Positions 1,920 through 47,393 of a DNA stretch of 64,000 bases are shown here, piece by piece. The translations under genes and the position numbers were made by a program. How positions within the stretch are numbered: position 1 is the first letter of the stretch; every line of letters starts with the position of its first letter. A model generated the notes under the pieces. It was not told the DNA's origin and made no database searches. It was given only the letters and a program-made list of their open reading frames with translations. This stretch comes from Parcubacteria group bacterium GW2011_GWC1_36_108 (GTDB lineage Bacteria > Patescibacteriota > Minisyncoccia > Moranbacterales > GWC2-37-73). The stretch covers positions 37,539-101,538 of the forward strand of contig LBRD01000007.1 in the NCBI GenBank assembly GCA_000991245.1. The letters are read 5' to 3'.

Positions 1920-1968
1920 GCATCGGTTGTGCTATAATAGATAAGTTCATTGAAATTGTGGTATATCA

Positions 1969-2290
1969 AAGTAATTGAGTGGTTACCCTGATTTTTATTG
2001 GGGAGGAAAGTCCGGACATTTAGCTTCAATTTATTTTGGAGTAAAGGTAGCGGGTAACGCCCGTCCGCAGTGATGCGAGAGGTGCGAGCAGAGACGCTTT
2101 GATTCGAAAGAGTCGAGCACCCTTCGGGGTGAGTTCTTATAGTAATATGAGAAGTGAAACGGCCAAATCCTTACCTGAATGCAAGACCGTATTCCAATGC
2201 TTTGCATTGGTTTGTGTCGCTCGAGCTTGTCAGTAATGGCAAGCCCAGATAAATGATCACTAATACAGAATCCGGCTTATAGATTACTTT
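1969..2290 (+). ncRNA. rnpB: RNase P RNA (bacterial type A)
   Basis: 'GGAGGAAAGTCCGGAC' P4 region, 'ACAGAATCCGGCTTA' 3' conserved region, 5'/3' ends pair (aaagtaat / attacttt) as P1. Confidence 0.85.
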
Positions 2291-2330
2291 GATATGCTAT
2301 GAATTTAATGAGATAATTTTATTCAAAAAA

Positions 2331-3764
2331 ATGAAAAAACGCAGCGAATTATTTTTTAGTGCTATTCAGGTTCCAATGGATGCGGCAATGATATTGTTGG
2401 CAGCGCTAAGTGCTTTTGCAATTCGAAATATTCCTGAACTTTTGGCATTAAAACCAAAGTTGTATAACTTTCCATTGGAAAGTTATTTGAATATTATTTT
2501 AACGATAATTCCACTTGCATTATTTATTTATGCTATTGAGGGGCTTTATAATATTAAAGTTACTAGAAAATTTTGGCAGGAAGCTGTGAAGGTTTTTTCT
2601 GCCACTTCTATTGTTTTGGTTGTGATTATTGTGACCATCTTTCTTAAACGAGAATGGTTTTCGTCTCGTTTTATAATTCTTGCAGGATGGGTTTTGACTG
2701 TTGTATATGTGACAATCGGAAGATATGCTTTGCAAAAAATACAGAGATATCTTTTGGAAACAAGAGGTGTGGGTGTGCACAGACTTCTTTTGATAGGTAG
2801 AAATGGCAAGATGGATCAAATCTTAAATTTAATCAAACACAACGCAGCCCTGGGTTATAAAATTGTCGGACATATGGAAGCTGGCAGCATCAGAGCTGTG
2901 CGCGAGCTCAAAGAAAGAAGAGGTGTTGATGAAATTATTGTTTGCGACGCACTGCTTACGGATGAGGAACAAGAAAAATTAATCGATTATTGCGCAATTA
3001 ATAATATTTCATATAAATTTATTCCGACAAAATTGCAGACCGCAAAATTCGAAGCAGGAATTTTCAATGGGGAACCGATTATTGAAATCAGGCATACTCC
3101 ACTTGAGGGTTGGGGAAAAATATTAAAACGTACTTTTGATATAATCAGCTCAAGCATTTTAATTGTAATTCTTTCTCCATTGATGCTGCTGGTTTCATTG
3201 CTTATAAAATTCGAATCACTTTTTGAAAACAGAAAAGGGGCGCCTATTATTTATAAAAATGAGCGCATCGGAAGTGACGGAAAGAAATTTAATGTGTTCA
3301 AGTTTCGATATATGAAATGGGAGTTTTGCACAGACCCTAATACAAAAGAAGGAAAAAAGGCGTTGGAATATGAAAAAGAGTTAATTGAAAAATTAAGCAT
3401 CAAAAAAGGTCCGCTTTACAAAATTAAAAATGATCCTCGCAAAACAAAAGTGGGTGCATTTATTGAGAAATTTTCTATCGACGAGCTCCCGCAGTTTTTC
3501 AATGTATTGTTTGGGGATATGAGTTTGGTGGGTCCTCGTCCACATCAGGAAAGGGAAGTTGAAAAATATAATGAATATCACAGGCGCTTGCTTACCATTA
3601 AGCCGGGGGTTACAGGAATGGCTCAGGTTTCAGGGCGCAGCGACCTCGAGTTTGAAGATGAATATAAGCTTGATGTGTTTTATATTGAAAATTGGTCACT
3701 TTGGCAGGATATTCAAATTTGCCTCAAGACAGCCTTAGTTTTGTTTAAAAAAAGGAAGAATTGA
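2331..3764 (+). CDS. undecaprenyl-phosphate sugar phosphotransferase (WbaP / bacterial sugar transferase family)
   Basis: N-terminal TMs; C-terminal 'DELPQFFNVLFGDMSLVGPRPH...KPGVTGMAQVSGR' sugar-transferase domain; ATG at 2331 chosen because 2289 would overlap rnpB. Confidence 0.85.
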   Translation: MKKRSELFFSAIQVPMDAAMILLAALSAFAIRNIPELLALKPKLYNFPLESYLNIILTIIPLALFIYAIEGLYNIKVTRKFWQEAVKVFSATSIVLVVIIVTIFLKREWFSSRFIILAGWVLTVVYVTIGRYALQKIQRYLLETRGVGVHRLLLIGRNGKMDQILNLIKHNAALGYKIVGHMEAGSIRAVRELKERRGVDEIIVCDALLTDEEQEKLIDYCAINNISYKFIPTKLQTAKFEAGIFNGEPIIEIRHTPLEGWGKILKRTFDIISSSILIVILSPLMLLVSLLIKFESLFENRKGAPIIYKNERIGSDGKKFNVFKFRYMKWEFCTDPNTKEGKKALEYEKELIEKLSIKKGPLYKIKNDPRKTKVGAFIEKFSIDELPQFFNVLFGDMSLVGPRPHQEREVEKYNEYHRRLLTIKPGVTGMAQVSGRSDLEFEDEYKLDVFYIENWSLWQDIQICLKTALVLFKKRKN

Positions 3765-4236: not shown

Positions 4237-4253
4237 TATCACTTTCGATATAA

Positions 4254-4283
4254 TAAAAACCCCGATGAAAGTCGGGGTTTTTA
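4254..4283. terminator. bidirectional intrinsic terminator (A-run, ccccga/tcgggg stem, T-run) shared by converging KH gene and folC
   Basis: stem-loop flanked by A5 and T5. Confidence 0.7.
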
Positions 4284-5780
4284 TATTTTTAAAAATGGAT
4301 AAATTGATGAAATCAAGTATAGCGATCCAGTTATTACAACTGGTTCTTTTGACGTTCTGATATTCTTAAGAATGTCAGAACGTTTGTTTTTTATGATGGA
4401 AAAGTTTTTGAAGTTTTGGGATTGCAAAAATGTTGCGATTTCTTGGTTGTCGATTGAACTCCAGTGATTGTCCATTCCTGAGGTTGAAAATTGTGTGAGC
4501 AGGATTTTGTCTGCGAGCGGGATGATATATTTCAGCATTACTTTAAAATCTTTGCCCTTTTTGAAAGCGATAACGAAAGTAAATTTTTGTGAGGGATAAA
4601 TTTTGGCAAGATTATTGCTAAGAGTTTTCATTTTTTGCGGATTGTGCGCACCATCAATAATGAGTGTTTGCCCGCCCGCAACGCTTCGCAAGTGAGCTTG
4701 CTCGCGTAGCGATGCGGGCGGGGCGCCAATCTTGCGAATTTCTAGGCGACCAGGAATTGTGATTTTTTCCAGTGCGCCTCGCAGTTTTGTTTCGTTGATT
4801 TCAATATTATCCCGCTTGGATAATATTGAAAGACAGGCAAGTGCGAGTGAGCAATTTTCGGCTTGATGAATTCCAATCAAGCCTAAATGGATATTTTTTA
4901 AAGATAGTTTTTTTTCTTTGTCATTCCGGGCTTGACCCGGAATCCAGCCGGACTTTATATCTTTAGTTATATTGCTAACTGATGATTTTAATAGGGGCTG
5001 GATTCCCGTTTTCACGGGAATGACAAGGTGAAAATCAAAAATTGTTTCTTGTGTCGTTGAAGAAATGATGGAATAATTTTTATTATTGATGATATGTAAT
5101 ACTGAATTTTTTTCTTCGCATTTATTTTTGATGACGGTTTGTGCTGCAGGCGTTTGTTGTGTGTTGATTGTTGTATTTTGGCTGTTAATTATCCCAGCTT
5201 TCTCAAGGGCGATTTCGGAAATAGTCTTTCCAAGAATTTGAGTGTGATCCAGTCCAAGTTTTGTGATGATGCAAATTTTGTTTTTGTTTGTCACGGTGTT
5301 GGTTGCATCAAGTCTTCCACCAAGCCCTGTTTCCATCACGGCGTAGTCTAGTTTTTCTTTGGCAAACATATAGAAAGCTAGCGCCACATTTATTTCAAAA
5401 AAAGTTGGCATTCCATATGAACTCTTTTCCATTTTCAAAATTGTTGGCAGGATTTGGTTGAAATATTTAAGAATCAGTTTTTCATTCGGCAGTTGATTGT
5501 TGATTTGCATTCTTTCGCGGATATCAAAAATATGTGGAGAAATTGACATTCCAACTGAAAATTCTTGGCTTTGCAGGATATGGCTGGTCAAATGGGCAGT
5601 AGAGCCTTTGCCAGAAGTCCCAGCAATGTGGATAACTTTAATTTTGTTTTGAGGATTTCCGAGCAATTTCATGAAATATTTGGCTCTTTTAAGACCAATA
5701 TCTCCCATAAACAAAGCCTCCCTCGTTGGAATGCGAGTTAGTAAAAAATCTTCAAATTGTTCCAATGTGGTAATTTTCAT
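4281..5780 (-). CDS. folC: folylpolyglutamate synthase / Mur-ligase family protein, with ~90-aa low-complexity insertion containing an in-frame repeat element
   Basis: 'IAGTSGKGST' P-loop, 'LGLDHT', 'IIDGAHNP' Mur ligase motifs; residues ~249-291 are translated repeat element. Confidence 0.75.
   Translation of the reverse strand: MKITTLEQFEDFLLTRIPTREALFMGDIGLKRAKYFMKLLGNPQNKIKVIHIAGTSGKGSTAHLTSHILQSQEFSVGMSISPHIFDIRERMQINNQLPNEKLILKYFNQILPTILKMEKSSYGMPTFFEINVALAFYMFAKEKLDYAVMETGLGGRLDATNTVTNKNKICIITKLGLDHTQILGKTISEIALEKAGIINSQNTTINTQQTPAAQTVIKNKCEEKNSVLHIINNKNYSIISSTTQETIFDFHLVIPVKTGIQPLLKSSVSNITKDIKSGWIPGQARNDKEKKLSLKNIHLGLIGIHQAENCSLALACLSILSKRDNIEINETKLRGALEKITIPGRLEIRKIGAPPASLREQAHLRSVAGGQTLIIDGAHNPQKMKTLSNNLAKIYPSQKFTFVIAFKKGKDFKVMLKYIIPLADKILLTQFSTSGMDNHWSSIDNQEIATFLQSQNFKNFSIIKNKRSDILKNIRTSKEPVVITGSLYLISSIYPFLKI
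4918..5028. repeat. MITE-like palindromic element copy A (double-hairpin ends TGTCATTCC...GGAATCCAGCC / GGCTGGATTCC...GGAATGACA), inside folC in-frame
   Basis: second copy at 29944-30043; terminal modules are inverted copies, each itself a hairpin. Confidence 0.6.
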
Positions 5781-7420: not shown

Positions 7421-8068
7421 ATGCGATTTGATATTATCACAATTTTTCCGAAGATTTTCGATAGCTATTTTGGCGAGTCGATTGTTAAGCGTGCTAGAGA
7501 AAAGAAAATCGTGGAAATTAACGTTCATAATTTGCGGGATTATTCAGTAAACAAGCATCATAATATTGATGACACTCCATATGGCGGAGGCGCTGGAATG
7601 GTGATGCAAGTCGAGCCGATTTATCGGGCAGTGGCTGATATTCAAAAAGCTAATTTAAAAACCAGAACGATTTTGTTTTCTGCCAAAGGAAAGCGATATA
7701 AACAAAAAGATGCAAAAAGATTATCCGAGTATGATCAGCTCATTTTTGTTTGTGGAAGATATGAAGGTGTTGATGAAAGAGTGGCTGAGTTTGTTGTTGA
7801 TGAAGAAATTTCTATTGGAGACTTTGTCCTGACTGGCGGCGAAATTCCGGCAATGCTGGTGGTGGACAGTGTCACGAGATTGCTGCCGGGAGTTTTGGGT
7901 AATGATCAAAGCGCGATTGAAGAATCACATAGCGAGGAAGGATATTTGGAATTTCCACAGTACACTAAACCGGAAAAGTTTTTAAAGTGGGAAGTGCCTA
8001 GCGTGCTGCTTAGTGGAAATCATAGTGAAATTGAAAGATGGAGAAAGGAGCATTCAGGACTCAAATAA
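7421..8068 (+). CDS. trmD: tRNA (guanine37-N1)-methyltransferase
   Basis: 'MRFDIITIFPKIF', 'DDTPYGGGAGMVM' TrmD signatures. Confidence 0.9.
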   Translation: MRFDIITIFPKIFDSYFGESIVKRAREKKIVEINVHNLRDYSVNKHHNIDDTPYGGGAGMVMQVEPIYRAVADIQKANLKTRTILFSAKGKRYKQKDAKRLSEYDQLIFVCGRYEGVDERVAEFVVDEEISIGDFVLTGGEIPAMLVVDSVTRLLPGVLGNDQSAIEESHSEEGYLEFPQYTKPEKFLKWEVPSVLLSGNHSEIERWRKEHSGLK

Positions 8069-8270
8069 TTTTAAGTTTTAAATTTTAAATTTAAAATCAA
8101 TTTCCAATAAATAAATTTGAAATGTTTAAAAATTAAGACATTGAAAAATTTGGATTTGATTAAAAACTTAAAACTTAAAATTTAAAATTTGATAGTCAAA
8201 AATAAAAAGATAAAATTTTATTATTTAGTGATACTGAGATAAATCAAATTGCTATATAAACTTGACCGGT

Positions 8271-10753: not shown

Positions 10754-12139
10754 ATGAATATTAAAGATATTAAAAAAGCTTATTTTGTGGGTATTAAGGG
10801 TGCGGGTATGACTGCTGTGGCTCAAATTTTGCAAAGCAGGAATATTGAAATTTCCGGCTCTGATACGGGCGAGGTTTTTTATACTGACGCAATACTAAAA
10901 CGTTTGAATATTCCATATTATGAAGAATTCATAGCGCGGCACGTTCCAAATGATGCTACTGTTGTTATTTATTCAACTGCTTATAATGAGGGAAATAATG
11001 TTGAAATGGCTGAGGCTAAAAAGATGGGTGTTTTAATGCTGAGTTATCCTGAAATTTTGGGACTTTTGTTTGCTGAAAAACTTGGTATTGCAGTTTGTGG
11101 AACGCACGGAAAAACAACCACCTCGGCGATGCTTGCCAGTGCTCTTACTGAAGCAGAATTGGAGCCTAGTGCAATTGTTGGGAGCAATGTTATTTCATGG
11201 GAGGGTAGTGCACTTTCTGGAAACGGAGAATATTTTGTGGCTGAAGCTGATGAATATCAAAACAAGCTTCGTTTTTACCAGCCGTGGTCTGTGATTCTCA
11301 CAAGTGTTGATTGGGATCATCCTGATTTTTTTCCGGATTTTGTTGAATATAAGAAAGTGTTTAAAGAATTTGTGAAAAAAATTCCCAAAACAGGTTTTTT
11401 GGTGGTTTGGGGTGATAGCAGTGACACATTGGAAGTTGCCGAGAGCGCAAATTGCAATTTGATTACCTATGGTTTTGGGGAAGACAATGAGTATAGAATT
11501 ACAAATTACAAATTACAAATTATAAATGAAAATACGATGCAGTTTTTTGAAGTTGAATATGATGGAAAAAATTTGGGAGAATTTATTTCGCCACTTTCTG
11601 GTAAGCACAATATTTTAAACGCCGCTTCTGTAATTGCACTTTCTCATAAAATGGGATTGGATTTAAGTAAAATAGGAAAATCACTGAATGAATTCAAAGG
11701 GACCACGAGACGTTTTGAATATATTGGAAAATATAAGCAAGCTTTGCTGATTGATGATTATGCTCATCATCCAGATGAAATCAAAGCAACACTTGCTGGC
11801 GCTAAAGATCGCTTCGAAGGAAAAAAAATCTGGACAGTTTTTCATCCGCACACTTTCTCCAGAACCAAAGCGCTGCTCCAAGATTTTGCTCAAAGTTTTG
11901 ATAACACCGAACGTGTGATTGTTATTGATACATATGGAAGTGCACGCGAATCTGGCGGGGAGGCCACTTCTGAAGACTTGGTAACATTGATTAATAAATA
12001 TAACTATAATAAGGCTGAGTATATTCCAACCATTGATGAAGCTACGCAGTATTTGAAAGAAAAGTCAGGAGAATATGACGTGCTTATTACAATGGGCGCA
12101 GGAGATGTTTGGAGAGTCGGACAAGCGCTTAAGGAATAA
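10754..12139 (+). CDS. murC: UDP-N-acetylmuramate--L-alanine ligase
   Basis: 'YFVGIKGAGMTAVAQIL', 'CGTHGKTTTSAM' Mur ligase motifs. Confidence 0.9.
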   Translation: MNIKDIKKAYFVGIKGAGMTAVAQILQSRNIEISGSDTGEVFYTDAILKRLNIPYYEEFIARHVPNDATVVIYSTAYNEGNNVEMAEAKKMGVLMLSYPEILGLLFAEKLGIAVCGTHGKTTTSAMLASALTEAELEPSAIVGSNVISWEGSALSGNGEYFVAEADEYQNKLRFYQPWSVILTSVDWDHPDFFPDFVEYKKVFKEFVKKIPKTGFLVVWGDSSDTLEVAESANCNLITYGFGEDNEYRITNYKLQIINENTMQFFEVEYDGKNLGEFISPLSGKHNILNAASVIALSHKMGLDLSKIGKSLNEFKGTTRRFEYIGKYKQALLIDDYAHHPDEIKATLAGAKDRFEGKKIWTVFHPHTFSRTKALLQDFAQSFDNTERVIVIDTYGSARESGGEATSEDLVTLINKYNYNKAEYIPTIDEATQYLKEKSGEYDVLITMGAGDVWRVGQALKE

Positions 12140-12649: not shown

Positions 12650-12766
12650 ACAAAAGTTACGCGTTTCGAAACATTTCTTTTTTGGCCAATTGCCTGCCTG
12701 CCGGTAGGCAGGTTGGCGACAGCAACTCTTTGAGCTTTTGGATACTCGCCCCGTCAAATTGTATTT

Positions 12767-15247: not shown

Positions 15248-15403
15248 TTTCCAATAACCAATTTCCAATTTCCAATAAATTCGCCATCCGGCGAAATTGC
15301 AATACAGCGAAGTGGTTTTTATTTTGGTTTGAAAATTTAAAGAATTGAAAATTGTGAATTGAAAATTATAAATTCAATAAAATGCGCAAAACTCTAAGAT
15401 TTT

Positions 15404-28833: not shown

Positions 28834-29935
28834 ATGAAAGAAATACTGGACAAATTATTTGAAATAAAAAATAAGCTCCCGCTTTTGCGGGACTATCTTT
28901 GACGTTGCTGGGAAGATGCGGAAGATAACAGACTTGACACGGACTAGCTCGGAAAAAGATTTCTGGAACGATACGCAGAAGGCTGCTAAAATTTCGCAGG
29001 AACTTGAACTTTTGAAAAATGAAGTTACGGGACTTGAAAATATTGAAAAAAAAGTTGATGAACTTATTGAATTGATTGGTCTTTTTGAAAATTCCGAAAA
29101 TGAAGAAAAGCAAGAAGTTGAAAAACAATTTTTACAATTACAAAAAGAATTCGACGACTTAGAATTTAAATCATTGCTGGGAGGGGAATATGACAAAAGT
29201 GATGTGATTTTGGCAATTCGCAGTGGCGCTGGTGGCGTTGATGCACAAGATTGGGCGCAAATGCTTGAAAAAATGTATTTGAAGTGGTCAGAAAAAAATG
29301 GTTTCAAAGCTGTGATGGTTGAGGAAACGCGTGGAGCAGAAGCTGGGATCAAAAGTGCGACAATTGAAATATCAGGTCCTTATGCATATGGATATTTGCA
29401 AAGCGAAGCTGGCGTGCATCGGTTAGTCAGACTTTCTCCTTTTAATTCTGACAATTTGCGTCAGACATCATTTGCGATTGTGGAAGTTTTGCCAGTAATC
29501 GAAGAAATTGCTGAAGTGATTATAAACCCACAGGATCTTGTGATTGACACATATCGAGCCTCAGGTGCTGGCGGGCAACATGTGAACACGACCGATAGTG
29601 CAGTGCGCATCACGCATACGCCAACAAACATTGTTGTTACCTGTCAAAGTGAGCGTTCTCAACTTCAAAACAAAGAGCAGGCAATGAAAGTTTTGAAAGC
29701 TCGAATTCATCAGCGATATTTGGAAGAGCAAAAAGCTGAAAAAGAAAAATTGCGCGGAGAGTATAAAAGTGCGGAATGGGGAAGTCAAATTCGATCATAT
29801 GTGATCCATCCGTATAAGATGGTTAAAGATCATCGCACAAAATTTGAAACTTCTGATGCGGAAAAAGTGCTTGAGGGAGAGTTGCAAGGATTTATGGAAA
29901 GTTTTCTGCGCTGGCAGGCTAGCAATGGCGAATAA
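28834..29935 (+). CDS. prfB: peptide chain release factor 2 with programmed +1 ribosomal frameshift (ORF0 28834-28899 'MKEILDKLFEIKNKLPLLRDYL' then skip T28900, continue 28901-29935)
   Basis: CTT TGA C shift site at 28897-28903; 'SPF' and 'GGQ' motifs downstream. Confidence 0.9.
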
Positions 29936-29943: not shown

Positions 29944-30043
29944 CTTGTCATTCCCGTGGAAACGGGAATCCAGGTTACGTATAAATATACATAATGGTGA
30001 TATTGAGTAGGGCTGGATTCCCAATCAAGTTGGGAATGACAAG
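29944..30043. repeat. MITE-like palindromic element copy B (same family as 4918-5028), intergenic after prfB
   Basis: tgtcattcccgtggaaacgggaatccagg ... ggctggattcccaatcaagttgggaatgacaag. Confidence 0.6.
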
Positions 30044-35228: not shown

Positions 35229-36554
35229 TTATCTGTTTTTCAGCTTATTTTTTATGGTAGAGAGGGAATTTCGAAGACTGTGAAATGTCATCGGGGTTGA
35301 GAATGTCGTGTCGATTGTGTTTACTTTGGCATTCTTGGAAAAGGTTGCACTTATTTGATAATCATTACCAATAAGCAGTGCCAAATCTTCGAGCGGCACA
35401 TCGCACTGATATGTGTTTGAGCTGAGCATTTTCTTTTTCAGTGTGCAAGTCGATTCTTTTGCAGCTTGTGCTGCGCTGGCGATTATTGGTTTTTGTTTGG
35501 CATATGTTTTTACAAGGACAGAACTGTTCATTGGTCTTTTCTTTTCATCTTTGATAATAAAATGGTTATTTGTTTCTTGATCGAAGAAAATTGTTCCATT
35601 GGGATGAGAGGAATTGCGTGTAAATTGTTTTTGTTTTTTGTACATTCCAATTTCATTGGAAGTGACTGCAATTACGTCGTTCCAATCAAATCCCATTGCC
35701 AAGAATGTCACATCATTTTCGATAGGATAACTTTTTTCTTCGCTCAAGATGAAAACTGATTCAGCTGATGAGACAAGTGTTCCGTCAGCAAAACCCAAAT
35801 ATGTTTCAGACACGGGATAACGAGAAAGAAAATCTTTTTCTTTCACAACTGTTGATGTCATATCAAACTGCGTCAAAAAAGCTCGCGCGCTGACAAAAGG
35901 GAAAAGTTGTTGGTTTTTTAATCTATAAAAATTATCATCGATAACAAAAAGTGTATCGTTGGGATAATTTTCGGCATTGGCAATTTCGTCTCCTGTTTTG
36001 TTTAATTTCAAATCATCTTGCGAAACTTCGACAAATGCGCTTTTGGGATAACCAAGATCAAGAATGATGTTGGTGCTGGAAAATTTGCGCAGCAATCCAT
36101 CAGAAACAATGTAATATTCTCCAGTTGGGGTTGTCAGCAATGTTCCATCTTTGAAATCAGCAGGCTTGCCAATTGGAAAGAAAAAGGCTTGATATGACTT
36201 GCTTATTTTCACTGAAGTGTTTTCAATGTCGTTGGAATTTTTTTCCAAAGTAAATGCGATGTTTGCTTTGGAAAATTGGCCTATTGGATTTGCATTGAAT
36301 ATTAATGTTTCGTTTGAACTGATTGATTTTTCAACTGGAAATCCTCCGGTTTGATTCAAGCGAGGGGAAACTAGCGTGTTTTTGTTTGAATTGGGCGTGT
36401 TCATCGAAAAATTTAGAGGAACAATAGGGAACAGGATTCGATACAAAATAAAAAACATCGCTATTAAAAAAACAAAATGAAGAAGCGCCCGCAGAACGGT
36501 ATATCTTTTTTGCAAAGTTGGTTCTAGTGTGACGTTTTTAGTAAGATCAAACAT
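35229..36554 (-). CDS. hypothetical N-terminally anchored extracytoplasmic protein (441 aa)
   Basis: single N-terminal TM then large soluble domain; no recognisable motif. Confidence 0.5.
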   Translation of the reverse strand: MFDLTKNVTLEPTLQKRYTVLRALLHFVFLIAMFFILYRILFPIVPLNFSMNTPNSNKNTLVSPRLNQTGGFPVEKSISSNETLIFNANPIGQFSKANIAFTLEKNSNDIENTSVKISKSYQAFFFPIGKPADFKDGTLLTTPTGEYYIVSDGLLRKFSSTNIILDLGYPKSAFVEVSQDDLKLNKTGDEIANAENYPNDTLFVIDDNFYRLKNQQLFPFVSARAFLTQFDMTSTVVKEKDFLSRYPVSETYLGFADGTLVSSAESVFILSEEKSYPIENDVTFLAMGFDWNDVIAVTSNEIGMYKKQKQFTRNSSHPNGTIFFDQETNNHFIIKDEKKRPMNSSVLVKTYAKQKPIIASAAQAAKESTCTLKKKMLSSNTYQCDVPLEDLALLIGNDYQISATFSKNAKVNTIDTTFSTPMTFHSLRNSLSTIKNKLKNR

Positions 36555-36634
36555 AGTTAATATAACATTTTAAATTTTAAATTCTAAGTTTTAAATTTTA
36601 AATGACAGGGCGGGAGTCCAGAATGACACGAGGC

Positions 36635-38419
36635 TTATTTGTTTACTTTAAATATTTTTCCTGACACTGAGATTTCTTTTTTTTCGGGAAGGGAAATTTT
36701 GTCGAGCTTATTGCTACGCTCAACGTCCAGCCTGGTGGTGGTAAGCGTGTATGAATCTGTTTCAGACAAGCTGCTTCCAATCGTGCTGTTTAAATAAAAT
36801 GGCACTTGCTTGTTGGGCGCAATCAAATAAACATTGGAAAAATTTTCAGTATCAAGTTTTGACAGGTCTTGATTATTGAAAAAGTACACAGCATTTTTGC
36901 TAAATAAATAATTCATCGGACCGCCCAGCATTGACCAGCCATCGCCTGAAGCCTCGCGGTCTATTAAAATTAAATCGTTGTCGGAAAATTTTGAGCTAAG
37001 TGTTTGAGTTTGAGCAAGGAGACTTTCGTTTTCATTGTAGGAAATATATTTTAAAAATGCCGGCAAATTCATTGCAAGTAATGCTAGGCTGATAAGGGCA
37101 GCTAATGTTTTTGTTTTAATATTTTTTCCTTCAAACCATTTGCCGAGCAGTATTCCTGAATAAAAAATTGCGCAAGGGAGAAGGGAAAACATAAAGCGTC
37201 TGAGCATCCAAGGATGATCCGGTGTGATTTGAGAATCAAAAAAATAAACAAAAGTAGGAAGAATTATAAAAAACGGAGTGAGTTTGTAGAATTCTTTTTT
37301 CCACAAAGCGTAAAGTGTTCCAAATCCGCCAACAATAAAAAATCCAAGCAAGCCGTAGAGATAAAATACTTTCAAGCTGTAAAAATCTGGCAGAATACTA
37401 TTTTTGATTTCTCCTAGATATTTTGCTTGAGGCGAGGTTACTGTGGGCAAAATAGCTTTTAAAATTTCTTTGTAAAAATACACATCAACATATACATTGG
37501 TTATAAAAATCAAAAACAATGCAATTGCTGGCAGAAAAAATCTGGATGACATTTTTTCCTTAACGAATGTGCGAGTATTTTTGTTGAGCAAGATCACCGC
37601 GATTGAAGCAAGAAGAAAAGCGAAGCCTTCAATTCTGGCAAAGCAAAGAAGGAAAGATGAAAAAAGAAAAACAAAATAAAATAATTTGCGTTGGTCTTTC
37701 AAGAAAAGCATCAATGAAAGAATCGTCAGCCACACGAGTGGCAGCGCAATATTTTCGCTAAGAGTGAATTTGGAAAACCACATAAAGACAAATGATGTTG
37801 AAGTCAGCAGCATTATTGGCAGAGCCGATGATGTTTTCAAAAATAAGCGCAGTGTCATATAAAATGACAAAAGGAACGTGAAAAACAAAACTGCATTTGC
37901 AACAAGAAATCCAGTTATTCCAAAAACAGCAAAAAACAAAGCAAGCCATGCAATATAGACTAGGGAAAATTGAGTGATGAGCAAGCCATCTTTGGTATAA
38001 TAAAAACCGGGGAAATTTTGAGCGCGTCCTGGCTCGTGCAATTTGAAAAATTCTTTGGAGGCAGGAGTGGAAAATTCAAGTTTGTGATTTTGAGCAAGTC
38101 TGGCTGCAGCTTCACTGAAAGAACCTTGATCTCTGCCTGTGAAAACAGAAGGCTGAGAGAGAAAGGAGAAAGAAATTGCAATAAAGATAAAGAGTATGCT
38201 TGTGAAAAAAAATTCGCGGGAAATTTTAAATGATATGCCAAAAGAAGTTGCTTTTCTTGCAAGCCAAATTCCGCCAATTGCCACTATTGTCCAAACCAAA
38301 GAGGCGTAGAAAAAACCGACAAGTGCCAAGGCGAAACTTCCCCAAGCTAAACTTAGCCAAACAAGGGCTTTAAACAGAAATATTTGATAATCTTTGGACG
38401 ACATTTTGTTGTTATTCAT
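36635..38419 (-). CDS. polytopic membrane protein, putative GT-C-fold glycosyltransferase (PMT/ArnT-like)
   Basis: ~12 TMs with large C-terminal extracytoplasmic domain; start at internal ATG 38419. Confidence 0.5.
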   Translation of the reverse strand: MNNNKMSSKDYQIFLFKALVWLSLAWGSFALALVGFFYASLVWTIVAIGGIWLARKATSFGISFKISREFFFTSILFIFIAISFSFLSQPSVFTGRDQGSFSEAAARLAQNHKLEFSTPASKEFFKLHEPGRAQNFPGFYYTKDGLLITQFSLVYIAWLALFFAVFGITGFLVANAVLFFTFLLSFYMTLRLFLKTSSALPIMLLTSTSFVFMWFSKFTLSENIALPLVWLTILSLMLFLKDQRKLFYFVFLFSSFLLCFARIEGFAFLLASIAVILLNKNTRTFVKEKMSSRFFLPAIALFLIFITNVYVDVYFYKEILKAILPTVTSPQAKYLGEIKNSILPDFYSLKVFYLYGLLGFFIVGGFGTLYALWKKEFYKLTPFFIILPTFVYFFDSQITPDHPWMLRRFMFSLLPCAIFYSGILLGKWFEGKNIKTKTLAALISLALLAMNLPAFLKYISYNENESLLAQTQTLSSKFSDNDLILIDREASGDGWSMLGGPMNYLFSKNAVYFFNNQDLSKLDTENFSNVYLIAPNKQVPFYLNSTIGSSLSETDSYTLTTTRLDVERSNKLDKISLPEKKEISVSGKIFKVNK

Positions 38420-38573
38420 ATTTTTAATTATACCGACTATTTTCGTATTTGCAAAGCACTTTTTGATGGTGTAAAATGAAATAAATAGATGCTCTATTAC
38501 TGAGAAATTGAAATACAAAAATATAACCCCAGTTAAATATTGCGGATTACCGCAATTTAACGGGGCAAGAAAA

Positions 38574-41027
38574 ATGCAAAAAAATCCTAATTTTATACAT
38601 TGGTATTATAATGAAGCAGTTTGTGATCTCTTGGAAATCTGGAAGAATTTTTTGTTTTTTGCTTGGCAACATTTTTCAATATCCGAACTTACAAAAACTC
38701 TTTTGTCTCCGTGGAGGCGCGATGTGGTTTTTTCCACTTGGGTGGGAATTCATCCGATCAAGATGCTGACAGCTCTTTTTGAAAATATTGTTTCAAGATT
38801 TTTAGGTGCGATTGTTCGCACTTTTGTTATTTTTGCGGGACTGGCTTTTTTTCTGCTGGTGCTTGTTTTTGGATTGATAATTAATATCGTCTGGCTTGGC
38901 GCTCCGCTTTTGTTGGTAGTCTTTTTCTTCTATGCTTTTAATCTTGGGATAGATTTTTATTATTCTATTGGCTTGGCGCTTGTCTGGATTGTTGGAGCGA
39001 TTTTTTTGTATTATCAAGATTCAAAGCCGCCAATGCTGCTTATGAATTTCCAGCATTTGCTCAGACACTCCGTTTTCGAAAGAATTTGTGGTCGACTTGG
39101 CATTGGACGCAAGCGTTTTCCAAAGGAGATTTTTGGCAATCAAGATCTTTTTAATGAATTTTTAAAAGCCAGGAATCTGACTGAAAAAGAATATTTGCGT
39201 CTTACTTCGATTGAATTGAAAAGACAGCAGGAAATAAATGATATGCCAAAATTTTGGCGTTGGGAATATTTGAATAAAATTCCCGCTATTGGAATGCAAT
39301 GGCGCTATGCGTATACTGTTCATTTGGATAAATATGGTTTGGATTTGTCGACAAATGATTGGAGTGAATATGCAAAGGCTGATCTTGTTGGCAGAGCAGA
39401 TGAATATGAAGTTTTGAAACTTGTGCTGGAAAGGCCTGATCAAAATTGTGCACTCTTGGTTGGAAATGCTGGAATTGGTAAAAAAACATTGATTCACTGT
39501 TTGGCCAAAAAAGTTCGTTTTAATGAAGAGATGGGAATTCTTTCCAACAAAAGAATGATCGTGCTTGATTTGGGGAGAGTGATTTCAGATGCCGTCAGCA
39601 AAGGCGAAGATGTGGAAAATTCATTGCGCAGACTTTTTTATGAGGCAAGTTATGCGGGTAATGTTGTTTTGATTATTGAACATTTTGAATATTTCTTAGG
39701 CAAAGAGGGAAGTTCTTTCCATCCTGACATTTCGGCAGTGCTTGCAGAGTTTTTGCATATTCCTACTTTTCAAATAATTGCAATATCAACACCCAAGGAA
39801 TATCATCATTTGATTGAAAAACAAGAAGAAATTGCAAAATATTTTGAAGTTATTGAAATGCGAGAGCCGTCTGAAGAGGAAACGATTGAGATTTTGCTGA
39901 ATCAACTTGAAAAATATGAACATAGGCGAGTGCTTTTTACTTTCAAGGCATTAGAGAAGATTGTGCGTGACAGTGCAAAGCATAATTGGGAGTTTCCTTT
40001 GCCGGAAAGAGCAATTGATTTGGCAATGGGTGTGCTGATGTTTTGGGAGAAAAAATCTGTCGAGCAATTTGTCACTGAAAAAACCGTGGCAGACTATTTG
40101 TCATTAAAAACTGGTGTTCCACAAGGGGAGATTGAGGGCGGAGAGAGAAAGAAATTGTTGAACCTTGAATCAATGCTGCATAGACAGGTTATTGGACAGC
40201 AAGAGGCAATCTCTCAGGTTTCTCAGGCGATGCGAAGAGCGCGCAGTGGAATTGGAAATTCTCAAAAACCAGTTGGAAGCTTTTTGTTTTTGGGACCAAC
40301 GGGAGTGGGAAAAACGGAAACTGCCAAAGCACTTGCCAAAACTTATTTCGGCGATGAAAATAAGATGATTCGTTTGGATATGAGCGAATTTCAAACTCCG
40401 AATTCTATTGATAGGCTGTTGGGTTCTAGTCAACTCAATCAACCAGGGAGATTGGTCACACAAATTAAAGACAATCCATACTCTTTGCTTTTGCTTGATG
40501 AAATAGAAAAAGCTTATCCGGAAATTCTGAATATATTTTTGCAAATCTTGGATGAAGGATATGTTAATGATGCTTTCGGCGAGAAGATAAATTTTCGCAA
40601 CACGATGATTATTGCAACTTCAAATGCAGGAGCTTCGCTTATCAAGGAGATGGTGGAGCAGGAGCGTCCGGCAGAAGAAATCAAGCAAGCTGTTATTGAT
40701 TGGACGATTAAAAATAACATTTTCCGCACTGAATTTCTGAATCGTTTTGAAGGAGTGATTTTCTTCCGACCGCTTAATGAAATTGAATTAAAAAGCGTTG
40801 TGCGTTTGCAATTGCAAAAATTTGTTCGCAGATTGGCAAAAGAAAAAAATATCGAGCTGGTTTATCAAGAAAATATTATTGAGAAGATTATTCAAAAAGG
40901 ATACAATCCAATTTTTGGAGCAAGATCGCTTAATCGATATATCGAAGATGAAATTGAAAGCATCGTGGCTAAAAAAATAATCTCTGGTGAAACATTGAGC
41001 GGGGAGAAAATCACGCTGTCACTTTGA
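38574..41027 (+). CDS. membrane-anchored Clp/Hsp100-family AAA+ ATPase (degenerate D1, intact D2)
   Basis: N-terminal multi-TM segment; degenerate Walker A 'GNAGIGKKT'; D2 'GPTGVGKTE', 'LLLLDEIEKA', 'ATSNAG', ClpB small D2 domain; alternative start 38508. Confidence 0.75.
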   Translation: MQKNPNFIHWYYNEAVCDLLEIWKNFLFFAWQHFSISELTKTLLSPWRRDVVFSTWVGIHPIKMLTALFENIVSRFLGAIVRTFVIFAGLAFFLLVLVFGLIINIVWLGAPLLLVVFFFYAFNLGIDFYYSIGLALVWIVGAIFLYYQDSKPPMLLMNFQHLLRHSVFERICGRLGIGRKRFPKEIFGNQDLFNEFLKARNLTEKEYLRLTSIELKRQQEINDMPKFWRWEYLNKIPAIGMQWRYAYTVHLDKYGLDLSTNDWSEYAKADLVGRADEYEVLKLVLERPDQNCALLVGNAGIGKKTLIHCLAKKVRFNEEMGILSNKRMIVLDLGRVISDAVSKGEDVENSLRRLFYEASYAGNVVLIIEHFEYFLGKEGSSFHPDISAVLAEFLHIPTFQIIAISTPKEYHHLIEKQEEIAKYFEVIEMREPSEEETIEILLNQLEKYEHRRVLFTFKALEKIVRDSAKHNWEFPLPERAIDLAMGVLMFWEKKSVEQFVTEKTVADYLSLKTGVPQGEIEGGERKKLLNLESMLHRQVIGQQEAISQVSQAMRRARSGIGNSQKPVGSFLFLGPTGVGKTETAKALAKTYFGDENKMIRLDMSEFQTPNSIDRLLGSSQLNQPGRLVTQIKDNPYSLLLLDEIEKAYPEILNIFLQILDEGYVNDAFGEKINFRNTMIIATSNAGASLIKEMVEQERPAEEIKQAVIDWTIKNNIFRTEFLNRFEGVIFFRPLNEIELKSVVRLQLQKFVRRLAKEKNIELVYQENIIEKIIQKGYNPIFGARSLNRYIEDEIESIVAKKIISGETLSGEKITLSL

Positions 41028-41040
41028 AATCATATAACAT

Positions 41041-41078
41041 ATAACATATAGCATATAACAAAAATGCTTAAAACTGGC
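41041..41078. repeat. CATATAACATATAGCATATAACA(AAAATG) locus-specific repeat (5 copies between 41.0 and 47.4 kb)
   Basis: copies at 41041, 43848(rc, degenerate), 46149, 46551(rc), 47357. Confidence 0.55.
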
Positions 41079-43885: not shown

Positions 43886-45064
43886 ATGAAATTGCTACTA
43901 ATTAAGGCTGGAAAAATCTTTAAAACAATTCAAAGGGAAGGTATTTTTAGGGGCGGAAAACGGGTTATTCTAGCTATTTTTGCTATGTTTCGTTTCGTAG
44001 GAAGTGGCGATGTTTTGTTTATTGCCGGAGGCGTTGGAGACAGTGCTCGCTATCGTGATCATCACGTGGCTGAAGAATTAGAGATTCAAGGTTTAAAATG
44101 TTCAATTACTGTTCAAGATAATCCATTTTTGCCAAATTATGCTGACAAATTCAAGGTGTTTGTTTTTCATCGAGTTTTATTTTCTCCAAGCGTAAAAAAG
44201 CTGATTGAAAAAATAAAAGAGCAGAAAAAAGAGATCATTTTTGAGACAGACGATTTGGTTTATGATCCAAAATTTTTAGAGTATATGGATGGGTTCAAAA
44301 CAATGAATTATCTTGAAAAAAAATTATACGAAAATGGAGTTGGAGGAGAAATTTTGGCTGATCCATATGTTAAGGTTTGCAGCACAACCACAACTTATCT
44401 TGCTGACAAATTGCGCCAGCAGAATAAAAAAGTTTTTATTGTTCCAAACAAGCTTTCAAGAAGGGATGTGGAAGTCGCAGATATAGTAACAAACAACAAA
44501 CAACAAACAACTGACAACAAAATCAATCTGGGATATTTCTCAGGAACACTTTCGCATAATAAAGATTTTGCTACCATCACTGAGGCTCTTGTGCAGATAA
44601 TGGAGAAAAATGAAAATGTTGAATTATTCTTGGTTGGACCACTTGATATTGAAAATGAACTGAACAAATTTGCTAGCAGAATAAAACAGTTGCCATATGT
44701 GACGCGCGAAAAACATTTTGGCAACTTGGCAAGTGTTGATATTAATTTGGTACCACTGGAAATTGGCAATCCATTTTGCGAATCAAAATCAGAACTGAAA
44801 TTTTTTGAAGCAGGAATTGTGGGCGTGCCAACAGTGGCAGCTGCCACAGCGCCTTTTGTTGAGGCCATCGCTGATGGCGTTGATGGTTTTGTTGCTAATG
44901 GCACCGAGCAATGGATTGAAAAAATAGAAAATCTTATTCTGGATGAAAATTTGCGAATTGAAATCGGAGAAAAAGCCCGCGAAAAAGCACTGAGTCGATA
45001 TACAACGACTAATGCCACAAATAAGAATTACTATGATTATTTGAAGAGCAAGATAAAAAGATAA
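43886..45064 (+). CDS. glycosyltransferase (GT4-like GT-B)
   Basis: 'LVPLEIGNPFCESKSELKFFEAGIVGVPTVAA'. Confidence 0.8.
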   Translation: MKLLLIKAGKIFKTIQREGIFRGGKRVILAIFAMFRFVGSGDVLFIAGGVGDSARYRDHHVAEELEIQGLKCSITVQDNPFLPNYADKFKVFVFHRVLFSPSVKKLIEKIKEQKKEIIFETDDLVYDPKFLEYMDGFKTMNYLEKKLYENGVGGEILADPYVKVCSTTTTYLADKLRQQNKKVFIVPNKLSRRDVEVADIVTNNKQQTTDNKINLGYFSGTLSHNKDFATITEALVQIMEKNENVELFLVGPLDIENELNKFASRIKQLPYVTREKHFGNLASVDINLVPLEIGNPFCESKSELKFFEAGIVGVPTVAAATAPFVEAIADGVDGFVANGTEQWIEKIENLILDENLRIEIGEKAREKALSRYTTTNATNKNYYDYLKSKIKR

Positions 45065-45182
45065 GACAATGCCAAATTAAAAATTAAAAATTTCAAATGA
45101 ATGACCAATGATAAAATGTTTAAAATTGGAAATTTGAGAATTTGAAATTGATTTGTAATTTGATATTTGTAATTTGAAATTT

Positions 45183-46139
45183 ATGCAAATTCTCGTTACT
45201 GGTGGTGCTGGCTTTATTGGAAGTAATGTTACAAAAAAATTATTGGAGCGCGGAGACTCTGTTGTTTGCGTGGATGAGTTTAATGATTATTATTCTCCAA
45301 AAATAAAGGAACTTAATGTTGCTCAATTTGCTGATAATCCAAATTTTACATTGTATCGTGGAAGCATTACGGATTATGAATTTTTGAAAACTGTTTTTGA
45401 AAAAGAAAACATTCAAAGAGTTGTGCACGCAGCAGCTCGAGCGGGTGTGCGACCGAGCATTGAAAATCCTTTCATATATGAAGACACGAACGTGAAAGGC
45501 ACGCTTAATCTTTTGCATTTAGCTAAGGAATTTAAGATTGAAAATTTTGTATTGTTTAGTTCATCTTCGGTGTATGGAAATTCCTCAAAAGTGCCATTTT
45601 CCGAAAATGAGGTGGTAGATTGTCCCATTTCACCCTATGCGGCCACCAAGAAGGCCACAGAGCTTCTAGGATACACATACCACCATTTATACCACCTCAA
45701 TGTAAATGTTGTACGTCCCTTCACAGTCTACGGGCCCGGTGGACGGCCTGATATGTTTCCATTTTTAGCCACCAAATTGATTGATGAAGGCTTGGAAGTG
45801 AAGCGTTTTGGAGACGGCTCAACTCGCAGAGATTACACTTTTATTGATGATTTGGTTGATGGGGTGGTGGCTGCACTCGACACGATTTTGGGATATGAAA
45901 TTTTCAACCTTGGAAATTCAAACACTGTCGAGCTTAATTATTTTATCTCCACGGTGGAAAAAATTCTTGGCAAAAACGCCAACATCAAAGAATATCCAAT
46001 GCAACCAGGGGATGTCCTGATCACAAACGCCGACCTCACCAAATCTCGAAAACTTCTCGGCTACAATCCGAAGGTAAAGATTGAAGAGGGAATGAGTATT
46101 TTTATAAAGTGGTATCAAGAAAACAAAAATCTTTACTAA
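45183..46139 (+). CDS. NAD-dependent nucleotide-sugar epimerase/dehydratase (extended SDR)
   Basis: 'ILVTGGAGFIGSN', 'YAATKKATE' YxxxK. Confidence 0.85.
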   Translation: MQILVTGGAGFIGSNVTKKLLERGDSVVCVDEFNDYYSPKIKELNVAQFADNPNFTLYRGSITDYEFLKTVFEKENIQRVVHAAARAGVRPSIENPFIYEDTNVKGTLNLLHLAKEFKIENFVLFSSSSVYGNSSKVPFSENEVVDCPISPYAATKKATELLGYTYHHLYHLNVNVVRPFTVYGPGGRPDMFPFLATKLIDEGLEVKRFGDGSTRRDYTFIDDLVDGVVAALDTILGYEIFNLGNSNTVELNYFISTVEKILGKNANIKEYPMQPGDVLITNADLTKSRKLLGYNPKVKIEEGMSIFIKWYQENKNLY

Positions 46140-46176
46140 GATTTTTGTAACATGTAACATATAACATGTAACAAAA

Positions 46177-47353: not shown

Positions 47354-47393
47354 AAACCATATAACATATAGCATAAAACATATAACACTTGTA

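What the first reader, a model, noticed from the sequence alone, without database searches (positions are those of the whole stretch)
4918..5028. MITE-like double-hairpin element inserted in-frame into folC, with a second copy after prfB
A ~100-110-bp element occurs at 4918-5028 and 29944-30043. Its ends are mutually inverted modules (TGTCATTCC[C]-hairpin-GGAATCCAGCC), each a hairpin of the form TTCCCnn-loop-nnGGGAA. Copy A lies inside the Mur-ligase/FolC ORF and is read through without a stop; it encodes '...FHLVIPVKTGIQPL...SGWIPGQARNDKEKK...' on the minus strand. Copy B is intergenic, and a spurious minus ORF there translates to the similar 'SRFHGNDKEKN'. A mobile element that inserts in-frame into coding sequence is the behaviour described for Rickettsia palindromic elements, and would be worth documenting in this lineage.
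Basis: seen in the sequence. Interest (0 to 1): 0.7.

Follow-up and report, generated by a model that had tools for sequence, protein, structure and literature searches.

The report
REP-hairpin pair inserted in-frame in folC
A small repeated DNA element made of two inverted hairpins, of the same class as the Rickettsia RPE-4/RPE-6 and Neisseria dRS3 repeats, sits in-frame inside the folC gene of a Candidatus Moranbacteria genome and adds 37 amino acids to a surface loop. This extends a known kind of selfish repeat to the Candidate Phyla Radiation; it is not a new kind of system.

Summary
Two about 100-bp elements (4918-5026 and 29945-30042) each consist of two inverted hairpin modules around an AT-rich spacer that is not conserved. 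These four modules are the only ones in the 64-kb window (covariance model 39-43 bits; next hit 11 bits).

Each module has a TGTC tag, an 8-bp stem starting AT, a loop of GAAA/GGAA or CTTGA, and a CCAG tail. That is the published definition of CGTC-tagged REPs (Di Nocera 2013), the class that includes Neisseria dRS3 and Rickettsia RPE-4/RPE-6.

Copy A is a true insertion of 37 codons in folC. Syntenic orthologues, including all outgroups, lack it. It maps to a low-confidence turn between two beta-strands. Copy B starts 10 nt after the prfB stop codon.

The same FolC loop carries at least three other repeat families in other Moranbacteria, so it has been hit repeatedly.

I found no target-site duplication and no associated transposase, so it is not a classical MITE.

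The module occurs almost unchanged in more than 20 phyla and in viral contigs, with covarying stems.

Verdict: a new member of a known kind, in a phylum where the paper library I searched held no report of it. How it moves remains unknown.

The parts
4918..5026 (.). Copy A: a dimer of two inverted CGTC-type REP hairpins around an AT-rich spacer. It lies in-frame inside folC and is read on the minus strand as V253-D287 plus flanking codons.
4918..4947 (+). Module A1: TT-GTC tag, stem ATTCCGGG/CCCGGAAT, 5-nt loop CTTGA, tail CCAG.
   Evidence: 42.6 bits
4948..4997 (.). Spacer of copy A: AT-rich, with a small internal hairpin. It is not conserved with copy B or with spacers of other dimers.
4998..5026 (-). 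Module A2: TT-GTC tag, stem ATTCCCGT/ACGGGAAT, loop GAAA, tail CCAG. It has the exact ATTCCC-N8-GGGAAT form.
   Evidence: 40.5 bits
4281..5780 (-). folC-family gene (folylpolyglutamate/dihydrofolate synthase-like Mur ligase), 499 aa. It hosts copy A and a second palindrome.
4671..4727 (-). A second, unrelated GC-rich palindrome, also in-frame in folC. Arms are CCGCCCGCA/TGCGGGCGG at 4672-4680 and 4713-4721. It encodes about GAPPASLREQAHLRSVAGG. Of the 26 orthologues aligned, only P0002 shares it; P0005 has a different, longer insert at the same site.
29945..30042 (.). Copy B: intergenic dimer starting 10 nt after the prfB stop codon, upstream of the ftsE-like ABC ATPase gene.
29945..29973 (+). 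Module B1: stem ATTCCCGT/ACGGGAAT, loop GGAA, tail CCAG.
   Evidence: 39 bits
30013..30042 (-). Module B2: stem ATTCCCAA/TTGGGAAT, loop CTTGA, tail CCAG.
   Evidence: 43.4 bits
28916..29935 (+). prfB (RF2) main ORF. Copy B follows its stop codon.

Best explanation
The element is a dimer of CGTC-tagged REP hairpins. This is the class that contains Neisseria dRS3 and Rickettsia RPE-4/RPE-6.

Architecture: two modules, each 5'-(T)TGTC tag, 8-bp stem beginning AT, 4- or 5-nt loop, CCAG tail. They lie in inverted orientation, tags outward and tails inward, around a variable AT-rich spacer. The layout matches an isolated Neisseria dRS3-RS-dRS3 (NIME) unit.

It is a non-coding, non-autonomous repeat that normally sits between genes, typically just after a stop codon, as copy B does.

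Copy A entered the turn of a beta-hairpin of FolC in the ancestor of a small Moranbacteria clade. It survived because the inserted length is a multiple of three (111 bp, 37 codons), the one frame in use has no stop, and the loop tolerates extra residues. The gene therefore still encodes a full-length enzyme with an extra, probably disordered, surface loop.

Shown here: the repeat identity and architecture, the insertion relative to orthologues, the loop location, repeated gains at the same loop, the absence of target-site duplications, and the absence of a neighbouring transposase.

Inferred: modules are recognised as hairpins, by sequence and structure together, by a trans-acting enzyme that leaves no duplication. 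A single-strand HUH-type or a dRS3-type site-specific recombinase are the candidates. Spread is selfish, with selection only filtering where copies persist.
For: Module anatomy meets every published CGTC-REP criterion.

Two of the four modules are exactly ATTCCC-N8-GGGAAT, the dRS3 consensus.

Tag-outward dimers with 13-95-nt gaps are the dominant arrangement elsewhere: 52 of 67 neighbouring pairs. GAAA + CTTGA heterodimers recur there.

Evidence that copy A is an insertion:
- Five of the 26 aligned FolC orthologues (P0006, P0007, P0021, P0047, P0070) have no extra residues at the site. In the 67-sequence set, every outgroup (P0062-P0070) has the short 6-7-aa state, against 44 aa here.
- The loci are syntenic.
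- At DNA level the element starts right after the F-x-F-x-x codons.
- The AlphaFold2 model has pLDDT below 50 at residues 258-287, between strands 246-254 and 290-299.

No target-site duplication was found in 56 dimers. No recurrent neighbouring gene family was found in about 2.3 Mb around modules. No transposase was found among the window's ORFs of 150 aa or more.

Only about 1-4% of 105 metagenomic dimers lie deep inside long ORFs, so the folC copy is the exception that survived.

Modules are open in 5 of 6 frames, but the whole of copy A is open only in the folC frame.

Relatives carry extra modules downstream of folC that this genome lacks, which shows turnover.
Against: No enzyme that moves these repeats is known or was found. 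No empty/filled pair is close enough to read the junction base by base; the nearest empty allele is about 67% identical in protein.

Only two dimers occur in 64 kb, and the rest of this genome could not be censused.

A and B differ in spacer sequence and at three stem pairs, so they are not recent copies of one another. Current activity is therefore unproven.

Expression of the decorated FolC was not tested.
Confidence: 0.8

Rival explanations
1. It is a classical MITE: a deletion derivative of an insertion sequence, moved by a DDE transposase that recognises the terminal inverted repeats and creates target-site duplications.
For: It has about 30-nt terminal inverted repeats, is about 100 bp long, is non-coding, and occurs in several copies.
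Against: 56 dimers show no direct repeats at their flanks beyond the shuffled control. Each 'TIR' is itself a hairpin whose stem covaries while its sequence changes; this points to structure-based recognition. No IS or transposase with these ends was found near 490 modules in genomes, metagenomes and viral contigs or in the window. Spacers are unrelated between copies.
Confidence: 0.05
2. The hairpin modules are maintained for a host or phage function rather than as purely selfish DNA. Candidate functions are a recombinase target as proposed for dRS3, a 3'-end mRNA stabiliser or terminator, or a nucleoid-protein site. On this view the folC copy is a by-product.
For: Copy B lies 10 nt after a stop codon, the typical REP position. 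Orthologous folC copies in P0001 and P0004 differ by 1 + 3 fully compensatory stem pairs. Stem covariation across phyla gives 96-98% Watson-Crick pairs against 52-70% expected. The near-invariant tag, G-N-A-R loop and CCAG tail across more than 20 phyla and in viral contigs imply a conserved reader. dRS3 is the integration site of Neisseria filamentous phages (PMC1797815).
Against: No canonical terminator follows either copy and there is no Rfam match. Decayed copies exist (P0016, L123). Compensatory differences could equally arise by replacement or conversion from other genomic copies. This rival does not exclude the main explanation.
Confidence: 0.25
3. The 37 residues are an ancestral, functional FolC loop that most lineages have lost. 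The resemblance to copy B is secondary.
For: The closest orthologues (P0002, P0003, P0004) share the segment. It is at least as conserved as the rest of the gene between P0001 and P0003.
Against: All outgroups and many interspersed lineages have the short 6-7-aa state. The same DNA module occurs intergenically in this genome and in more than 20 phyla. Other lineages carry unrelated repeat families at the same loop, at slightly different codons. The segment is predicted to be unstructured.
Confidence: 0.02

Closest known systems
CGTC-tagged REPs (Di Nocera, De Gregorio & Rocco 2013, BMC Genomics 14:522; families CGTC-1 and CGTC-2)
   Same: The features match: the tag (CGTC, 'changed to TGTC in many repeats'), an 8-bp stem with A-T in the first two positions, a 4-nt loop (family 1) or 5-nt loop (family 2), a CCA tail, mostly inverted dimers with 20-100-bp spacers, a position just after the 3' ends of genes, occasional in-frame copies inside genes, and no dedicated transposase.
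   Different: [quoted passage not shown] Here it is in Patescibacteria/CPR, and my scans find it in more than 20 phyla and in viral contigs. The gaps between stems here (58 and 47 nt) are at the long end. Each dimer pairs a 4-nt-loop module with a 5-nt-loop module.
Rickettsia palindromic elements RPE-4 and RPE-6 (Ogata et al.; equated with CGTC-4 and CGTC-1 by Di Nocera 2013)
   Same: Short palindromic repeats are found in-frame inside genes for conserved proteins. They add a peptide that does not destroy the protein.
   Different: The host lineage is different: free-living or episymbiotic CPR, not Rickettsiales. Most copies of this family seen in metagenomes are intergenic. I did not compare sequences directly with R. 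conorii RPEs; the link rests on the 2013 classification. RPE-1 is longer and unrelated.
Neisseria dRS3 / NIME units (dRS3-RS-dRS3)
   Same: It has the ATTCCC-N8-GGGAAT hairpin (exact in two of the four modules), two inverted hairpins flanking a lower-GC spacer of variable sequence, and GC peaks at the hairpins.
   Different: Neisseria NIMEs are intergenic and often form long arrays. Here the units are isolated and one is coding. Phage or IS110-type integration at these sites was not tested.
REPINs mobilised by RAYT (GTAG-tagged REP doublets)
   Same: It is a doublet of inverted REP hairpins that can fold into one long hairpin, is non-autonomous, has no target duplication, and is inferred to be recognised by hairpin structure plus a tag.
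   Different: The tag is TGTC/CGTC, not GTAG. No RAYT or other Y1 gene flanked by modules was found.
Coxiella burnetii MITEs (PMC5896051, title and abstract only) and other bacterial MITEs
   Same: These are small non-autonomous repeats. By its title, the Coxiella paper discusses implications for protein evolution.
   Different: Those are TIR-defined, transposase-derived elements. This one lacks target duplications and any cognate IS.

Membership tests
CGTC-tagged REP superfamily (Di Nocera 2013) | Unpaired 5' tag CGTC (variants TGTC, CCTC) | tested here: met
   All four modules begin TGTC. Elsewhere the tag is T/C-GTC.
CGTC-tagged REP superfamily (Di Nocera 2013) | Stem of 8-9 bp with complementary A-T in the first and second positions | tested here: met
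   The 8-bp perfect stems are ATTCCGGG, ATTCCCGT (twice) and ATTCCCAA.
CGTC-tagged REP superfamily (Di Nocera 2013) | Loop of 4 nt (family 1) or 5 nt (families 2-4) | tested here: met
   The loops are GAAA, GGAA (4 nt) and CTTGA twice (5 nt). The same loops dominate in other phyla.
CGTC-tagged REP superfamily (Di Nocera 2013) | Short unpaired 3' tail fitting CCA | tested here: met
   The tail is CCAG in all four modules, and in 176 of 223 modules elsewhere.
CGTC-tagged REP superfamily (Di Nocera 2013) | Mostly inverted dimers with spacers of about 20-100 bp | tested here: met
   Both copies are dimers with 58 and 47 nt between stems. 52 of 67 close pairs elsewhere have the same orientation.
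CGTC-tagged REP superfamily (Di Nocera 2013) | Multi-copy family dispersed in the genome | tested here: inconclusive
   There are two dimers in 64 kb and extra copies in relatives' folC loci. The rest of this genome was not available.
Rickettsia palindromic elements (RPE) | Palindromic repeat inserted in-frame in a conserved protein gene and absent from orthologues | tested here: met
Rickettsia palindromic elements (RPE) | Inserted peptide lies on the protein surface, away from the core fold | tested here: met
   The AF2 model has pLDDT below 50 at residues 258-287, in the turn between strands 246-254 and 290-299. This is a prediction only.
Rickettsia palindromic elements (RPE) | Sequence homology to a named RPE family of Rickettsia | not tested
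   I made no direct alignment to R. conorii RPE-4 or RPE-6. The link is through the classification in PMC3733652. The same module occurs in Rickettsiales MAGs L081 and L111.
Neisseria dRS3 / NIME | 20-bp inverted repeat ATTCCC-N8-GGGAAT | tested here: met
   It is exact at 5002-5021 and 29950-29969. The other two modules are ATTCCG-N9-CGGAAT and ATTCCC-N9-GGGAAT. The consensus comes from PMC1797815.
Neisseria dRS3 / NIME | dRS3 copies flank 50-150-bp RS elements, often in long intergenic arrays | tested here: not met
   Single dRS3-spacer-dRS3 units are present, but there are no arrays. The spacers are about 36-47 bp and one unit is intragenic.
MITE (transposase-derived) | Target-site duplication flanking each copy | tested here: not met
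   56 dimers, offsets 0-4, k = 3-9: counts equal the shuffled control.
MITE (transposase-derived) | Terminal repeats shared with an autonomous IS that encodes a transposase | tested here: not met
   There is no recurrent transposase near the modules and none in the window.
REPIN / RAYT | GTAG tag and a single-copy RAYT gene flanked by the REPs | tested here: not met
   The tag is TGTC. No Y1-transposase-like cluster was found next to the modules.

The most novel reading that the evidence does not exclude
In Candidate Phyla Radiation bacteria, several families of small hairpin repeats may repeatedly insert in-frame at the turns of beta-hairpins of housekeeping enzymes. The families seen here are CGTC-type REPs, GC-rich palindromes and a TGCGGTCGTC-core hairpin. 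FolC alone shows at least four decorated sites and several independent gains at one loop, which would make such repeats a systematic source of protein length variation in these streamlined genomes. The CGTC module itself, nearly invariant across more than 20 phyla and carried on viral contigs, would be read by a still unidentified, widely distributed sequence-and-structure-specific enzyme. The breadth of the distribution could now expose that enzyme through phylogenetic profiling.
Probability: 0.3. Interest if true: 0.65.

Novelty: new member of a known kind. Interest (0 to 1): 0.4.

Why it matters
This places the RPE/dRS3 class of hairpin repeats in the Candidate Phyla Radiation. The paper library I could search held no report of REP, MITE or palindromic-element insertions in that group.

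It gives a clean natural example of a tolerated 37-residue insertion in an essential-type enzyme. The empty, filled, decayed and collapsed states are all available in relatives.

The wider observations bear on an old open question: what moves or reads CGTC-type REPs, dRS3 and RPE-4/6. Those observations are recurrent hits on one FolC loop by unrelated repeat families, and a 29-nt module conserved with covarying stems across more than 20 phyla and in viral contigs. They do not answer the question.

There is a practical point too. Such insertions inflate and fragment protein families and create spurious small ORFs (VIPAKAGIQ, LDSRFRGND, WIPAFAGMT) in MAG annotation.

Tried and rejected
- Target-site duplications: 56 dimers tested at offsets 0-4 and k = 3-9 gave nothing above the shuffled control.
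- Associated enzyme: I clustered all ORFs of 110 aa or more within 1.2-1.5 kb of modules in about 2.3 Mb of genome, metagenome and viral loci. Only unrelated housekeeping or phage structural families recurred.
- Mobilising enzyme in the window: a Pfam scan of 43 ORFs found no transposase, integrase or HUH protein.
- Known RNA family: no Rfam hit on either copy at gathering thresholds.
- Intrinsic terminator or promoter at copy B: none by consensus scan.
- Conserved spacer family: the spacers of A and B match neither each other nor the spacers of 500+ other dimers.
- Decayed solo modules in the window: a covariance model with filters off finds only the four.
- Exact junction from filled versus empty alleles: the nearest empty folC alleles are too divergent (about 67% protein identity). 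Intergenic comparisons downstream of folC are unalignable.
- Recent recombination of the element between the P0001 and P0003 lineages: identity in the element (about 94-100% per 60-nt window) is only moderately above the gene average of about 85%, so I make no claim.
- HH/TT nomenclature of the 2013 paper: the text held gives no definition, so I describe orientation as tags outward, tails inward.
Full report
**What is in the sequence**

- Copy A runs from GTC at 4920 to GAC at 5024 (105 bp). With the TT/AA that extend the inverted repeat it spans 4918-5026.
- Copy B runs from 29947 to 30040 (94 bp), or 29945-30042 with TT/AA.

Each element consists of two inverted modules around an AT-rich spacer. 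The four ends align as (C/T)TTGTCATTCC[C]-hairpin-GGAATCCAG.

The pattern is far above chance:
- GTCATTCC occurs 6 times against 1.67 expected.
- The ATTCC...GGAAT hairpins occur 4 times against 0.59 expected.
- A scan for 'GTC + 8-bp stem starting AT' finds exactly these four, against 0.28 in shuffles.
- A covariance model built from modules of other organisms scores them at 39-43 bits, with nothing else in the window above 11 bits.

Either strand of each element folds into one long hairpin, -42 to -52 kcal/mol, z about -7.

A and B are 71% identical. The identity is in the modules. The spacers resemble neither each other nor the spacers of about 500 other dimers.

**Host and gene context**

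The 499-aa ORF 4281-5780 (-) is a FolC-family Mur ligase:
- Pfam finds Mur_ligase_M and Mur_ligase_C.
- The best solved relative is Thermotoga maritima FolC 1o5z, E = 4e-50.
- An identical protein is on record as Candidatus Moranbacteria, on 18 contigs of up to 221 kb. The sequence is therefore not a one-off assembly artefact.

The window holds ordinary cell-wall, translation and sugar-metabolism genes and no transposase.

Copy B starts 10 nt after the prfB stop codon (29933-29935). It lies upstream of an ftsE-like ABC ATPase gene.

**Copy A is an insertion**

In an alignment of 26 orthologues, five have nothing at the site (P0006, P0007, P0021, P0047, P0070). They read FNFSF|RGIDLKNINLGLIG where this protein has 44 residues between F250 and K295.

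The loci are syntenic: trmD, ftsW, murG and murC lie on one side, and the KH-domain gene and a sugar transferase on the other.

In a neighbour-joining tree of 67 orthologues with the variable columns masked, the short 6-7-residue state is found in all outgroups and is scattered through the ingroup. The long state is therefore derived.

At DNA level the element begins immediately after the F-x-F-x-x codons (…TTT GAT TTT CAC CTT|GTC ATT CCC…). It adds 37 codons relative to empty alleles.

The AlphaFold2 model (mean pLDDT 79.6) has pLDDT below 50 at residues 258-287. This is the turn between strands 246-254 and 290-299.

**What the element is**

Each module has a TGTC tag, an 8-bp stem beginning AT (ATTCCnnn), a loop of 4 nt (GAAA, GGAA) or 5 nt (CTTGA), and a CCAG tail.

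This matches, feature for feature, the CGTC-tagged REPs of Di Nocera et al. 2013 (PMC3733652):
[quoted passage not shown] - loops are 4 or 5 nt;
- tails fit CCA;
- the repeats occur mostly as inverted dimers with 20-100-bp spacers;
- they usually lie within 20 bp of the 3' end of the upstream gene;
- they are occasionally found inside genes;
- they have no dedicated transposase.

That paper equates CGTC-1 with Neisseria dRS3, and CGTC-1 and CGTC-4 of R. conorii with RPE-6 and RPE-4. The dRS3 consensus ATTCCC-N8-GGGAAT (PMC1797815) is met exactly by two of the four modules. The hairpin-spacer-hairpin layout with a lower-GC spacer is that of an isolated NIME unit.

I did not align directly to Rickettsia sequences.

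**It is not a classical MITE**

56 tag-outward dimers, from the loci held at that point plus the window's own two, show no flanking direct repeats above a shuffled control.

No gene family recurs next to about 490 modules in about 2.3 Mb of genomic, metagenomic and viral sequence.

The terminal 'repeats' are hairpins whose inner stem positions covary. In modules selected only by their outer sequence, the three unconstrained pairs are Watson-Crick in 92-98% of cases. For the two variable pairs the expectation from base frequencies is 52-70%, and up to four pair types are seen.

By contrast, the tag, the first five stem pairs, the G-N-A-R or CTTGA loop and the CCAG tail are conserved in sequence.

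That combination is what a protein reading a hairpin plus flanking bases would leave. REP/RAYT and IS200/IS605 work this way (established knowledge). For this class it is an inference only.

**Distribution**

The hosts included:
- Campylobacterota, Zixibacteria, Planctomycetota and Chloroflexota;
- Desulfobacterota, Nitrospirota, Ignavibacteriota and Elusimicrobiota;
- Acidobacteriota, Actinomycetes and Bacteroidota;
- Rickettsiales;
- many Patescibacteria classes.

There the modules lie between phage structural genes.

A stricter full-dimer pattern gave 104 metagenomic loci. Only about 1-4% of those dimers lie deep inside long ORFs. The family is therefore normally intergenic, and the folC copy is a rare survivor.

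A module is open in 5 of 6 reading frames. Copy A as a whole is open only in the folC frame, because the AT-rich spacer carries stops in the other frames.

**The FolC loop is hit repeatedly**

In other Moranbacteria the same loop carries a range of inserts:
- the same kind of dimer (P0002, P0003, P0004, P0016);
- a dimer with different stems (TGTC-ATCCTGAA-CTTGT-TTCAGGAT-CCA, read as CHPELVSGS…; P0015, P0019, P0023);
- a single long hairpin with a tag at both ends (P0014), which looks like a collapsed dimer;
- a different family read as LFQNQTTASKW (P0005, P0009 and others);
- serine/glutamate-rich tandem repeats.

Sister lineages differ in state, and the insertion points differ by up to three codons. 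These are therefore independent events, not one ancestral insertion.

Whether this reflects target preference or only survivorship in a tolerant loop is open.

The orthologous copies in P0001 and P0004 differ by one and three fully compensatory stem pairs. P0016 and a copy downstream of folC in L123 are decayed. The relatives with loci L002 and L123 carry modules downstream of folC where this genome has only a 45-bp spacer with a bidirectional terminator.

**Mechanism, with confidence**

I hold with about 0.8 confidence that this is a CGTC-class REP dimer. It entered a FolC beta-hairpin turn and persisted because it is 3n long, stop-free in the used frame, and in a tolerant loop.

The mode of spread is inferred: hairpin-dependent, without target duplication, and driven by an unidentified trans-acting enzyme. 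A maintained host or phage function for the hairpins is not excluded and is compatible with this. Candidate functions are a recombinase site, as proposed for dRS3, or a 3'-end RNA structure.

**Novelty**

The kind is known. The lineage appears new: no paper in the searchable library combines CPR or Patescibacteria with REP, MITE, REPIN or palindromic elements. I rate it a new member of a known kind, interest 0.4.

The more novel reading has about 0.3 probability. It is systematic in-frame decoration of CPR proteins by several hairpin-repeat families, together with a pan-bacterial module that implies an undiscovered reader enzyme.

Noticed in passing
window 4671-4727 (- strand, inside folC): A second, unrelated GC-rich perfect palindrome (arms CCGCCCGCA/TGCGGGCGG; -41 kcal/mol, z = -4.3) is also read in-frame as about GAPPASLREQAHLRSVAGG. 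Of the 26 orthologues aligned, only P0002 shares it; P0005 has a different, longer insert at the same site. It lies in a low-confidence turn between strands 347-351 and 371-375 (pLDDT below 50 at residues 361-369).
   Followed up: partly
FolC orthologues P0002, P0019, P0023, P0050 (after RERMQV); P0011, P0016, P0050 (near the C-terminus); P0028 (SLPAGQAGH): Further in-frame inserts with a palindromic, GC-rich look occur at at least two other FolC sites in other Moranbacteria. FolC lengths range from 444 to 543 aa among close relatives.
   Followed up: partly
window 51297-51348, 52031-52082, 52139-52190: Three copies of a 52-nt hairpin (TTGGCGCCA…TGCGGTCGTCAG…TGGCGCC) flank ORF 51391-51957, which has a PaaX_M 'Cas2-like' domain. 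The core TGCGGTCGTC also appears, reversed, in the 'LFQNQTTASKW' insert of FolC in P0009 and P0005. No Rfam family matches.
   Followed up: partly
loci L003-L122 (GTDB genomes) and L234-L353 (IMG/VR): The module TTGTC-ATTCCCGC-GAAR-GCGGGAAT-CCAG is found nearly unchanged in more than 20 bacterial phyla and in viral contigs. This is far wider than the five phyla reported in 2013.
   Followed up: partly
L124 about 1160-1300 (folC of P0002): The left module of the orthologous element is itself split by another palindromic insert (…GTCATTCCCGC|CAGCCTCGACTCGCAAGACG…GTGAGGCGG|GTGAAAAC…). This is a nested insertion inside a hairpin.
   Followed up: no
L126 1766-1792 (folC of P0014): The insert is a single hairpin, GTCATTCCGGA-CTCGA-TCCGGAATGAC, with a tag at both ends. 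It is read as VIPDSIRND and looks like a dimer collapsed by deletion between its two stems.
   Followed up: no
window 4237-4280: A bidirectional intrinsic-terminator-like hairpin (AAAACCCCGACTTTCATCGGGGTTTTT) lies between the convergent folC and KH-domain genes. Relatives (L002, L123) have 190-300 bp here, including CGTC modules.
   Followed up: partly
window 28897-28903: CTTTGAC, the canonical prfB +1 frameshift site, lies just upstream of the long RF2 ORF that starts at 28916.
   Followed up: no
window 12700-12725: A small GC-rich hairpin (CCTGCCTGCCGGTAGGCAGG) lies in the intergenic region upstream of ORF 12767. A similar sequence appears to encode the 'LPAGQAG' insert in FolC of P0028.
   Followed up: no
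window 8067-8190, 11492-11527, 15338-15373, 36559-36603, 41026-41065, 45063-45181, 46139-46192, 47353-47392, 55762-55832: Many intergenic regions carry AT-rich short tandem or interspersed repeats (AATTACAAATTACAAAT, CATATAACATATAAC, AAATTTTAAATT). Their significance is unknown.
   Followed up: no
window 1967-2295 (+) and 55064-55129 (-): Rfam finds RNase P RNA (class A; 130 bits) and a DUF3800-II sRNA (68 bits). The TTG-start ORF 2289-3764 overlaps the end of the RNase P RNA by a few bases, so its true start is probably downstream.
   Followed up: no
window 35229-36554 (-), 36635-38518 (-), 61238-62671 (+), 52536-53009 (+), 54521-55081 (+): These large ORFs have no Pfam match at E <= 1e-5.
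   Followed up: no
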